Made by a program: the position numbers and the translations under genes. Source: Escherichia coli (GTDB lineage Bacteria; Pseudomonadota; Gammaproteobacteria; Enterobacterales; Enterobacteriaceae). Taken from it: DNA of 64,000 nucleotides. The stretch lies in the NCBI RefSeq assembly GCF_002854065.1, contig NZ_CP024147.1, one strand, 5' to 3'. Of the stretch, positions 4,459-5,462 are shown one piece after another. The notes beneath the pieces were generated by a model. That model saw only the letters and a list, made by a program, of their open reading frames with translations. It made no database searches and had not been told where the DNA came from. Each line of letters begins with the position of its first letter. Within the stretch, counting starts at the first letter, position 1.

Positions 4459-5229
4459 TGTGTCTTTACATTATAAATATCCTTCACAAAATATTGTTGA
4501 TAAGACATGGTTAGGTGGTGAGCTGCCTCGGAAAATATGACGACAGTAATGATTTCTAAGAGATTTGAAATGCGTTGATAACAAAATCTGAAATATAGGA
4601 GTCTGTTTAGGATTGTGTGTAAATGCCTTTTCTCAAAAGTAACCGTCCAGGCGGTCACTGAATCCGATAATAAAGCGGCTTATTGCCATACCCCAGTCCT
4701 TCAACGGCATCGTCCATTTCGGGGACGATGCCTGTATTGCCAGACACACCACTTTTTTCACCGGCTCGTCTGTCGGAAACACTTACGCTTTTTGATCGCA
4801 TGGCGGATCACGCTGTTTAGCGACCCGATGGCATTCGTCAGCGACAGCGACGACTCTTACCGCTGGAACGAAGTGGATAAGCGCTTCAGTGTCGACGACA
4901 CGCCGAACGAGCCGAACCGCTTCGGCTGGGTGGGGGAAATCGATCCATATGGTTATTTTTCAGAAAATAATGAGAACATCTGTGCTTTATATAACCAGAT
5001 AAAACCACGCAATAAGCATAAATATTACAGGTGATAATACTTTTATTTATCACTTCGGTTATATTCAATAAACATAATAACTTTCTCTTAAATCACAGGT
5101 CCAGCCATTGCAGTTGTTATCAGACGTAGATTAGGATGCCAGTGCATTTACATGGGATGGTTTGTGTATCCACCGGGTATAATGCGTGATATCATTAATT
5201 TCAACACTAACTGTGCGATTGTCTTTCAT

Positions 5230-5254
5230 GCCTGCCCTCCGGGCAGGCTTTTTT
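5230..5254 (+). terminator. Candidate intrinsic terminator hairpin (gcctgccc-tcc-gggcaggc followed by T-run)
   Basis: Perfect 8-bp GC-rich inverted repeat followed by TTTTTT. No intact upstream gene, so it may be a relic. Confidence 0.35.
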
Positions 5255-5462
5255 CTGCATGCAGAAAAAAATCACCGGAAAAAACGGCAGCAGATAAAAA
5301 AGAGTGCTGACAGGGATATTATTTCATCCGCTCACTGGCGAGATGATAAACGTTGCTACGTTCACGTTTACTAGACTGGCCCCCTGAATCTCCAGACAAC
5401 CAATATCACTTAAATAAGTGATAGTCTTAATACTAGTTTTTAGACTAGTCATTGGAGAACAG

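What the first reader, a model, noticed from the sequence alone, without database searches (positions are those of the whole stretch)
4459..5371. Unassigned segment between the autotransporter and IS2 with a protein-like ORF and a terminator hairpin
ORF 4615..5034 has an implausible Cys/His/Arg-rich N-terminal half, but its C-terminal half reads like genuine protein (...AFVSDSDDSYRWNEVDKRFSVDDTPNEPNRFGWVGEIDPYGYF...). A clean GC hairpin plus T-run follows at 5230..5254. This may be the 3' fragment of a degraded island gene with its terminator retained. I could not assign a family.
Basis: seen in the sequence. Interest (0 to 1): 0.3.

Follow-up and report, generated by a model that had tools for sequence, protein, structure and literature searches.

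The report
Gene scraps downstream of aatA
The unassigned 913 bases between the aatA adhesin gene and IS2 are an ordinary patchwork of dead gene fragments carried over from IncF-type plasmids, plus one conserved terminator hairpin; there is no working gene.

Summary
In detail: ORF 4615-5034 and a GC hairpin with a T-run at 5230-5254 are both there. The ORF is a chance read-through across three unrelated pieces.

- **First half (4615-4839):** antisense of the last 68 codons of an IS1414-like (IS256-family) transposase, which carries a frameshift.
- **Protein-like stretch (about 4838-4949, 38 aa):** an internal fragment of a PhoX-family alkaline phosphatase, matching residues 216-252 of a 588-aa solved PhoX.
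- **Tail (4950-5034):** AT-rich spacer.

The hairpin does not belong to the phoX scrap. It sits in a separate IncF/IncK plasmid-backbone module (5074-5318), which occurs in other plasmids without the phoX piece. That module abuts the last 16 codons of a ParE/RelE toxin gene on the minus strand (5319-5371), which IS2 has split.

The whole 913 bp travels with aatA. It is 100% identical in many E. coli chromosomes, about 92-98% identical in BL21 and on IncF plasmids, and NCBI's pipeline already marks the three fragments as pseudogenes. On plasmid pEsST2350_SE_2 the same segment sits beside an intact toxin-antitoxin pair and IncFII repA.

The finding is ordinary and of low interest.

The parts
961..4458 (+). 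aatA (APEC autotransporter adhesin A), intact. Context gene on the left of the segment.
   Evidence: 3498-bp ORF, 1165 aa. Pfam finds Autotransporter beta-domain, AC_1, PATR and Pertactin. It is 97.8% aa identical to the BL21 copy. PMC2944236 describes aatA as a 3,498-bp ORF present in BL21, REL606, pAPEC-O1-ColBM and IMT5155, flanked by mobile elements.
4459..4598 (.). Native 3' flank of aatA. Non-coding, 32% GC, with no structure beyond chance.
   Evidence: It travels with aatA in chromosomes and plasmids. Fold z = +0.65. No terminator-like site.
4599..4839 (-). Terminal 241 bp of an IS1414-like (IS256-family) insertion sequence. It keeps one inverted-repeat end (GAGTCTGTTTAGGATTGTGTGTAAATGCC...) and the last ~68 codons of the transposase on the minus strand, with a 1-nt deletion frameshift. 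It is truncated internally at 4839. The astA/EAST1 region is not retained.
   Evidence: 90.5% nt identity to IS1414 of p720632_94 from the IS end inwards. tblastn of the IS1414 transposase places residues 335-366 and 350-402 in two minus-strand frames (translation). PGAP calls 4633-4838(-) a frameshifted partial pseudogene. The IS1414 transposase is Pfam Transposase_mut. astA lies 413-526 bp into IS1414.
4838..4949 (+). Internal fragment (38 codons, 59% GC) of a PhoX-family alkaline phosphatase gene. It lacks the N- and C-terminal parts and shares a 2-nt overlap (TC) with the IS1414 remnant.
   Evidence: Pfam PF05787 PhoX, E = 0.0089, 15.7 bits, below the gathering score of 24, profile positions 201-224/515. 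PDB PhoX chains 4amf_A/3zwu_A, residues 216-252 (4amf_A), E = 4e-5. 86.8% aa identity to P0008, a PhoX fragment that itself scores E = 6e-31 against PF05787. 83% nt identity over 112 nt (E = 1e-29) to the PhoX-annotated (PF05787) region of a 4.6-Mb chromosome, whose gene calls are fragmented, with homology limits at 4838 and 4949. PGAP annotates it as 'alkaline phosphatase', partial.
4950..5073 (.). AT-rich spacer (27% GC), non-coding. It supplies the tail and stop codon of the spurious ORF.
   Evidence: Composition. 4956-5030 is about 80-83% similar to the region upstream of a 113-aa membrane ORF that converges on yacB/yacA next to IncFII repA in p06_3044-1. No Pfam or NCBIfam hit.
5074..5318 (.). 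IncF/IncK plasmid-backbone intergenic module. In intact plasmids it lies between a toxin-antitoxin pair near repA and a ProQ/FinO-family gene. It contains the hairpin.
   Evidence: 82-97% identical copies occur in 243 plasmid records. It lies about 200 bp upstream of a minus-strand ProQ/FinO-family gene in pGZM7d, pCM2-NDM, pESBL-blaCTXM-55 and the IncK2/Z plasmid pRHBSTW-00176_3, none of which has the phoX scrap.
5230..5254 (+). Intrinsic-terminator-like hairpin (GCCTGCCC-TCC-GGGCAGGC) plus T6. A second palindrome, TTTTTTCTGCATGCAGAAAAAA, follows at 5249-5270. This is the first such site on the + strand downstream of aatA.
   Evidence: The stem and T-run are conserved in six contexts. The only stem change (BL21 allele, C to T) keeps a G:U pair on the + strand RNA but would be a C.A mismatch on the minus strand. 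The loop varies among TCC, GGA and ACA.
5319..5371 (-). 3' end (last 16 codons plus stop) of a ParE/RelE-family toxin gene, cut by IS2. The remnant continues at 6703-6765 (codons 61-80; 6703-6707 is the TTTAC target duplication) and is truncated there by an IS3-family end.
   Evidence: tblastn of the intact toxin from pEsST2350_SE_2 places residues 80-95 at 5369-5322 and residues 61-80 at 6762-6703, both at 100%. The toxin is Pfam ParE_toxin, E = 7.5e-15. PGAP calls it 'RelE family toxin', partial.
4615..5034 (+). Spurious chimeric ORF: antisense of the IS1414 transposase, then the phoX scrap in frame, then AT-rich spacer.
   Evidence: All three substitutions among four alleles within the phoX part are non-synonymous. 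Some alleles carry a frameshift (P0005) or an earlier stop. No Shine-Dalgarno sequence is suitably spaced from the GTG at 4615 or the ATG at 4828 (read).

Best explanation
The 913 bp between aatA and IS2 is a fossil junction region that moves together with aatA. It is a string of non-functional fragments joined by illegitimate recombination or deletion on an IncF-type plasmid, and later carried into chromosomal islands.

From left to right it contains:
1. The native aatA 3' flank.
2. The outer 241 bp of an IS1414-like element. Its transposase 3' end lies on the opposite strand and is frameshifted.
3. A 38-codon internal piece of a foreign, GC-rich phoX gene, joined to the IS interior at a 2-nt microhomology.
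4. An AT-rich spacer.
5. A plasmid-backbone intergenic module with a strong plus-strand terminator hairpin.
6. The last 16 codons of a parE/relE toxin gene, whose remnant IS2 later split in this particular strain.

ORF 4615-5034 is an accidental open frame across pieces 2 to 4 and encodes nothing.

The only element likely to still act is the hairpin. It is the first intrinsic-terminator-like site on the aatA strand, so it probably stops read-through from aatA about 770 nt past its stop codon, before transcription runs into the convergent toxin remnant. The fragment identities and boundaries are shown by tool results. The order of events and the terminator role are inferred.
For: - **Spread of the unit:** the 913 bp is 100% identical in many E. 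coli chromosomes. At least 80% of it is present in 359 of 5426 genomes and in 173 plasmids.
- **Plasmid arrangement:** on IncFIA/FIB plasmid pEsST2350_SE_2 the same segment (98.7%) lies between aatA and an intact ParE-family toxin, a Phd/YefM antitoxin and IncFII repA.
- **IS1414 remnant:**
- **PhoX fragment and its exact limits:**
- **Abrupt GC steps at the junctions** (0.32 / 0.50 / 0.59 / 0.27 / 0.42).
- **Module 5074-5318 occurs without phoX** in IncF and IncK plasmids.
- **parE remnant split by IS2 with a TTTAC duplication:**. IS2 is absent from otherwise identical genomes.
- **Existing annotation:** PGAP already marks three partial pseudogenes here.
- **Terminator:**. There is no other plus-strand terminator-like site or excess structure between 4459 and 5229.
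Against: - The PhoX Pfam score (15.7 bits) is below the gathering threshold. The assignment rests on the PDB match, on the close match to a longer fragment that does pass, and on an 83% nucleotide match.
- No transcript data were available, so whether the hairpin terminates aatA transcripts is untested.
- The direction of transfer (plasmid to chromosome) is inferred only from the intact toxin-antitoxin-repA context on plasmids.
- The donor of the phoX piece was not identified.
Confidence: 0.9

Rival explanations
1. One reading: the region is the 3' end of one degraded island gene, and the hairpin at 5230-5254 is that gene's own retained terminator.
For: The phoX scrap and the hairpin are on the same strand and 280 bp apart. 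The scrap is a true protein remnant.
Against: The scrap corresponds to residues 216-252 of a 588-aa PhoX (chain 4amf_A), so it is internal. Nucleotide homology to a real phoX stops at 4949, and 27%-GC unrelated DNA follows. The hairpin module occurs without any phoX sequence in IncF and IncK plasmids.
Confidence: 0.03
2. ORF 4615-5034, or the shorter ATG-started version at 4828 that some databases list as a 'DUF839 domain-containing protein', is an expressed chimeric or de novo small protein.
For: The frame is open in several alleles, and gene callers have deposited 64-79-aa products from it.
Against: Its first half is antisense to a transposase fragment. No suitably spaced ribosome-binding site is visible. 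All three substitutions in the phoX part among four alleles are non-synonymous. Frameshifted and early-stop alleles exist. A 38-aa slice of a roughly 515-position beta-propeller domain cannot fold as PhoX. PGAP treats it as a pseudogene.
Confidence: 0.03
3. The conserved core of module 5154-5300 encodes a small plus-strand RNA, or a regulatory element, that ends at the hairpin. In intact plasmids it would be functionally tied to the adjacent ProQ/FinO-family gene. In the window it would be an orphaned copy.
For: The core is about 95% conserved across IncF and IncK contexts whose flanks diverge. The hairpin and U-tract are kept, and the single stem change is compatible only with the plus strand. 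FinO-domain proteins recognise terminator hairpins with 3' U-tails (abstract of PMC9674577 and PMC7367173). A TATAAT lies at 5178-5183.
Against: No Rfam family matches; the best E-value is 0.89. The consensus scan finds no plus-strand promoter there. The TATAAT reads GAAAAT in the copies next to the ProQ gene. There are no compensatory stem changes, and high identity may only reflect recent common ancestry. No expression data are available.
Confidence: 0.08

Closest known systems
aatA flanking regions of E. coli BL21/REL606, APEC_O1 (pAPEC-O1-ColBM) and IMT5155 (Dai et al. 2010, PMC2944236)
   Same: The gene is the same 3,498-bp aatA. The BL21 locus aligns across the whole 913-bp segment (92.4% over 4951-5318; fewer differences in the left half) and has the same three PGAP pseudogenes, followed by IS30 and IS3-family debris.
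   Different: This window carries an extra IS2 inside the parE remnant. It has a different allele of the right-hand 370 bp: 100% to strains such as AMSCJX02 and 97% to pEsST2350_SE_2. The paper describes only IS elements in the flank, not the scraps.
IS1414 (IS256 family, carries astA/EAST1)
   Same: One terminal inverted repeat and the transposase 3' end align at 90.5% nt from the IS tip inwards.
   Different: Only 241 bp are left, about a fifth of the element. The remnant is frameshifted, has no astA and no second end, and at 90% identity is a diverged relative rather than IS1414 proper.
PhoX alkaline phosphatase (Pfam PF05787 / DUF839; Pseudomonas fluorescens PhoX, PDB 3zwu, 4amf)
   Same: 38 residues align, including the conserved NEPNRFGWV-EIDP motif region.
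   Different: It is an internal fragment without start, signal peptide, most of the propeller or the C-terminus, so it cannot be an enzyme.
Plasmid ParE/RelE-Phd/YefM toxin-antitoxin pair next to IncFII repA (a different pair in the same position is named YacB/YacA in p06_3044-1)
   Same: The 16 + 20 retained codons are 100% identical to the intact toxin of pEsST2350_SE_2, and the downstream intergenic DNA is the same.
   Different: Codons 1-60 and the antitoxin gene are missing, and IS2 has split the remnant.

Membership tests
PhoX alkaline phosphatase (PF05787) | Whole-domain match above Pfam's gathering score (about 515 profile positions) | tested here: not met
   15.7 bits against a cut-off of 24; only profile positions 201-224 are covered.
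PhoX alkaline phosphatase (PF05787) | Significant sequence homology to bona fide PhoX proteins or genes | tested here: met
   PDB PhoX E = 4e-5. 86.8% aa identity to P0008, which scores 6e-31 on PF05787. 83% nt identity over 112 nt to a chromosomal phoX.
PhoX alkaline phosphatase (PF05787) | Complete ORF with start, export signal and C-terminal propeller blades | tested here: not met
   Homology is limited to 4838-4949. The flanks are an IS1414 remnant and AT-rich DNA.
IS1414 / IS256-family insertion sequence | Terminal inverted repeat | tested here: met
   One end only: the window from 4599, GAGTCTGTTTAGGATTGTGTGTAAATGCC, against IS1414 GAGCCTGTTTAAGATTCTGTGTAAATGCC.
IS1414 / IS256-family insertion sequence | Intact Transposase_mut (PF00872) gene, second inverted repeat and target duplication | tested here: not met
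   Only residues ~335-402 of 402 remain, in two frames. Homology ends at 4839. No other IS1414 match exists in the 64-kb window.
ParE/RelE type II toxin (PF05016) | Complete toxin ORF with its cognate antitoxin gene upstream | tested here: not met
   Only residues 61-95 of 95 are retained and IS2 has split them. No antitoxin gene is present.
Rho-independent (intrinsic) terminator | GC-rich stem, short loop, and a run of at least 5 T immediately 3' | tested here: met
   8-bp stem (7 G-C), 3-nt loop, T6; -16.7 kcal/mol, z = -3.4. Conserved in 6 contexts.
Rho-independent (intrinsic) terminator | Transcript 3' ends map to the U-tract in vivo | not testable with these tools
   No transcriptome data were available.
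Rfam RNA families | Covariance-model hit at or above the gathering score in 4000-6000 | tested here: not met
   Best hits are E = 0.89 and 0.9, far below the gathering scores.

The most novel reading that the evidence does not exclude
The highly conserved core (about 5154-5300) of the plasmid-backbone module, with its plus-strand terminator hairpin, may be an undescribed small RNA or cis-regulatory element. In IncF and IncK plasmids it would partner the adjacent ProQ/FinO-family (possibly FopA/YafB-like) RNA-binding protein gene. The copy in this window would be an orphan that lost the protein gene.
Probability: 0.07. Interest if true: 0.4.

Novelty: already known. Interest (0 to 1): 0.06.

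Why it matters
It matters little on its own. It closes an unassigned gap: the segment is debris, not a hidden gene, and gene callers that list 'DUF839 domain-containing protein' or 'hypothetical protein' here are reporting a pseudogene scrap.

It has modest side value in two ways. The IS1414 - phoX - plasmid-backbone - parE patchwork is a distinctive scar linking chromosomal aatA islands (including the one in BL21) to IncF aatA plasmids, so it can serve as a marker for tracing aatA mobility. The hairpin is also the likely de facto terminator of the aatA transcript.

Tried and rejected
- **Rfam scan of 4000-6000 at permissive E-value:** only chance hits (Termite-flg E = 0.89, mir-36 E = 0.9).
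- **NCBIfam and Pfam on every ORF of 32 aa or more in the segment:** only the sub-threshold PhoX hit.
- **A 32-aa minus-strand ORF (5229 to 5133, MKDNRTVSVEINDITHY...)** that starts at the hairpin with a GGAGG in the loop. Rejected for three reasons. The ATG is ATA in the BL21 and pX14-3 alleles. The loop, and so the GGAGG, is flipped in pEsST2350_SE_2. The frame differs in pGZM7d.
- **A plus-strand promoter for a putative sRNA.** A TATAAT lies at 5178-5183, but there is no acceptable -35, the scan does not call it, and it reads GAAAAT in the ProQ-adjacent copies.
- **Word-indexed protein searches** returned only short fragments, many from tiny contigs in E. coli, Klebsiella and even M. tuberculosis assemblies. 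They did not identify the phoX donor taxon, and neither did the cluster look-up.
- **A terminator or structure directly after the aatA stop (4450-4600):** none, z = +0.65.
Plasmid and BL21 comparisons explained every base.

Full report
**Observation.**
- An autotransporter ORF ends at 4458.
- A 139-aa GTG-started ORF runs 4615-5034 on the plus strand.
- A hairpin GCCTGCCC-TCC-GGGCAGGC sits at 5230-5248, followed by TTTTTT at 5249-5254.
- IS2 begins at 5372.

The hairpin is stronger than chance. The scan found 3 terminator-like sites in 4400-5450 against 0.6 +/- 0.7 in shuffles. It folds at -16.7 kcal/mol with z = -3.4, or z = -5.3 when the adjoining palindrome TTTTTTCTGCATGCAGAAAAAA is included. 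IS2 is confirmed by 100% identity to annotated IS2 copies and by its 5-bp target duplication TTTAC at 5367-5371 and 6703-6707.

**Where the segment occurs.** The 913 bp is 100% identical in many E. coli chromosomes. At least 80% of it is present in 359 of 5426 complete genomes and in 173 plasmids. It always follows the same autotransporter.

That gene is aatA. It is a 3,498-bp ORF, 97.8% identical in protein to the BL21 copy, with autotransporter, autochaperone and pertactin domains. Dai et al. 2010 (PMC2944236) describe aatA as a 3,498-bp single-gene locus in BL21, REL606, pAPEC-O1-ColBM and IMT5155, enclosed by mobile elements.

NCBI's pipeline already annotates three partial pseudogenes inside the segment:
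- a frameshifted 'hypothetical protein' on the minus strand (window 4633-4838);
- an 'alkaline phosphatase' missing both ends (4837-4950);
- a 'RelE family toxin' missing its N-terminus (from 5319).

**Anatomy, piece by piece.**

1. *4459-4598:* the native aatA 3' flank. It has 32% GC, no structure beyond chance (z = +0.65) and no terminator.

2. *4599-4839:* the outer 241 bp of an IS1414-like IS256-family element, 90.5% identical to IS1414 starting exactly at its terminal inverted repeat. The last ~68 codons of the transposase lie on the minus strand in two frames, because of a 1-nt deletion. The astA/EAST1 gene that IS1414 carries lies 413-526 bp in and is not retained.

3. *4838-4949:* a 38-codon internal fragment of a PhoX-family alkaline phosphatase, 59% GC.
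   - Pfam PF05787: E = 0.009, below gathering, profile positions 201-224 of 515.
   - Solved P. fluorescens PhoX: residues 216-252 (chain 4amf_A, 588 aa), E = 4e-5.
   - 86.8% aa identity to P0008, a longer PhoX fragment that scores 6e-31 on the Pfam model.
   - 83% nucleotide identity over exactly 112 nt to the PhoX-annotated region of a 4.6-Mb chromosome, whose gene calls are fragmented. This fixes the homology limits at 4838 and 4949.
   - The left junction overlaps the IS remnant by two bases (TC). This is typical of illegitimate joining and is not an IS insertion site, because the IS is broken internally there.

4. *4950-5073:* 27%-GC spacer. Part of it is about 80% similar to the region upstream of a small membrane ORF that converges on yacB/yacA beside IncFII repA in p06_3044-1.

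5. *5074-5318:* a plasmid-backbone intergenic module that includes the hairpin. Copies at 82-97% identity occur in 243 plasmid records. In pGZM7d, pCM2-NDM, pESBL-blaCTXM-55 (IncF) and pRHBSTW-00176_3 (IncK2/Z) it lies about 200 bp upstream of a minus-strand ProQ/FinO-family gene, with no phoX sequence nearby.

6. *5319-5371:* the last 16 codons plus stop of a ParE/RelE toxin gene on the minus strand. They are 100% identical to the intact 95-aa toxin (Pfam ParE_toxin, 7.5e-15) of plasmid pEsST2350_SE_2. Codons 61-80 follow on the far side of IS2 at 6703-6762.

The GC content steps 0.32 / 0.50 / 0.59 / 0.27 / 0.42 / 0.43 across these pieces, as expected of a patchwork.

**What the ORF is.** ORF 4615-5034 is an accidental open frame: antisense transposase, then the phoX scrap in frame, then AT-rich spacer up to the first stop. 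Several observations argue against a real gene.
- No suitably spaced ribosome-binding site precedes the GTG at 4615 or the internal ATG at 4828.
- All three substitutions in the phoX part among four alleles are non-synonymous.
- Frameshifted and early-stop alleles exist.
- Thirty-eight residues of a roughly 515-position propeller domain cannot form an enzyme.

**What the hairpin is.** Stem and T-run are conserved in all six contexts aligned. The one stem substitution (BL21 allele) keeps a G:U pair on the plus-strand RNA but would be a C.A mismatch on the minus strand, which weakly favours plus-strand function.

It is the first terminator-like site on the aatA strand after the aatA stop. I therefore infer that it now acts as the effective aatA terminator and shields the convergent toxin remnant from read-through. 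This was not tested.

A weak minus-strand hairpin with a T-run at 5289-5266 may have been the terminator of the toxin-antitoxin operon. It is disrupted in the BL21 allele.

**History (inferred).** On pEsST2350_SE_2 the same 913 bp (98.7%) lies between aatA and an intact ParE-type toxin, a Phd/YefM antitoxin and IncFII repA. The patchwork was therefore probably assembled on an IncF plasmid and then moved, with aatA, into chromosomal islands. There the toxin gene was truncated by an IS3-family element, and in this strain IS2 then split it.

pMTY9803 keeps the aatA 3' end, the flank and 780 bp of canonical IS1414 at the same site. This fits an ancestral full IS copy 140 bp downstream of aatA.

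In this window the island sits next to a radC-like gene and dsdC-dsdX-dsdA-emrY.

**Comparison with the known, and novelty.** Every piece belongs to a known family, but none passes as a functional member; the membership table gives the tests. The region is present in published genomes, including BL21, and is already flagged as pseudogenes. I rate it 'already known' and of low interest.

The one reading with some novelty is that the conserved core around the hairpin is an undescribed small RNA or regulatory element partnering the neighbouring ProQ/FinO-family gene in intact plasmids. FinO-domain proteins bind terminator hairpins (PMC9674577, PMC7367173), and FopA/YafB is a plasmid example (PMC7491321). 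Against this reading:
- there is no Rfam hit;
- there is no convincing promoter;
- there is no compensatory variation in the stem.

I give it about 7%.

Noticed in passing
window 5238-5240; L004 (pEsST2350_SE_2) about 6780-6782; L008 (BL21): The 3-nt loop of the terminator hairpin is TCC in the window, AMSCJX02, pGZM7d and the IncK plasmid. In pEsST2350_SE_2 it is the exact reverse complement, GGA, which looks like a loop flip typical of template switching at palindromes. BL21 and pX14-3 have ACA plus a stem C-to-T change.
   Followed up: partly
window 5372-6702, with 5367-5371 and 6703-6707: This IS2 copy (1331 bp, 5-bp TTTAC duplication) sits inside the parE remnant. It is absent from chromosomes that are otherwise 100% identical across the segment, such as AMSCJX02, so it is a recent strain-specific insertion.
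   Followed up: yes
window 6766-8300: The parE remnant is truncated at about 6765 by an IS3-family end (TGAATCGCCACAGG...). That element's orfA (6822-) is itself interrupted by an IS30 copy (transposase 7141-8292). The same nesting occurs in strain 98203 and, truncated, in BL21.
   Followed up: partly
L007 (pMTY9803_IncBOKZ) 3140-3170: At the same site downstream of the aatA 3' end, this plasmid has 14-15 nt of the window-type IS end (GGAGTCTGTTTAGGA) directly followed by the end of a canonical IS1414 (98.8%, 780 bp retained, with astA). This suggests a second IS1414 insertion into the older copy, or recombination between them.
   Followed up: partly
L005 2101-2724, L014 1690-2310, L016 1679-2302 (minus strand): A 207-aa ProQ/FinO-family protein gene lies about 200 bp from the conserved hairpin module in IncF and IncK2/Z plasmids. 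In the IncK plasmid an ATP-dependent helicase gene follows it. Whether it is a FopA/YafB orthologue was not tested.
   Followed up: no
window 332-682: Upstream of aatA there is an IS2-like integrase-core remnant (..[19 protein letters not shown]..) with an internal stop. PGAP annotates it as a pseudogene in the identical loci. It matches the 'interrupted IS2' drawn in the 5' flank by Dai et al. 2010.
   Followed up: no
proteins P0008, P0113 cluster, P0141: Near-identical PhoX fragments are deposited from contigs of 200-480 nt in assemblies labelled E. coli, Klebsiella, Acinetobacter and even Mycobacterium tuberculosis. This looks like a common contaminant organism carrying the true phoX, and its identity was not resolved.
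   Followed up: partly
window 9413-16330: To the right of the IS cluster the window carries a radC-like JAB-domain gene (9413-9904). A small ORF of unassigned family follows at 10262-10654. Core genes dsdC, dsdX, dsdA and emrY come next, so the aatA island abuts the dsd locus. In strain LHM10-1 the same junction truncates dsdA.
   Followed up: no
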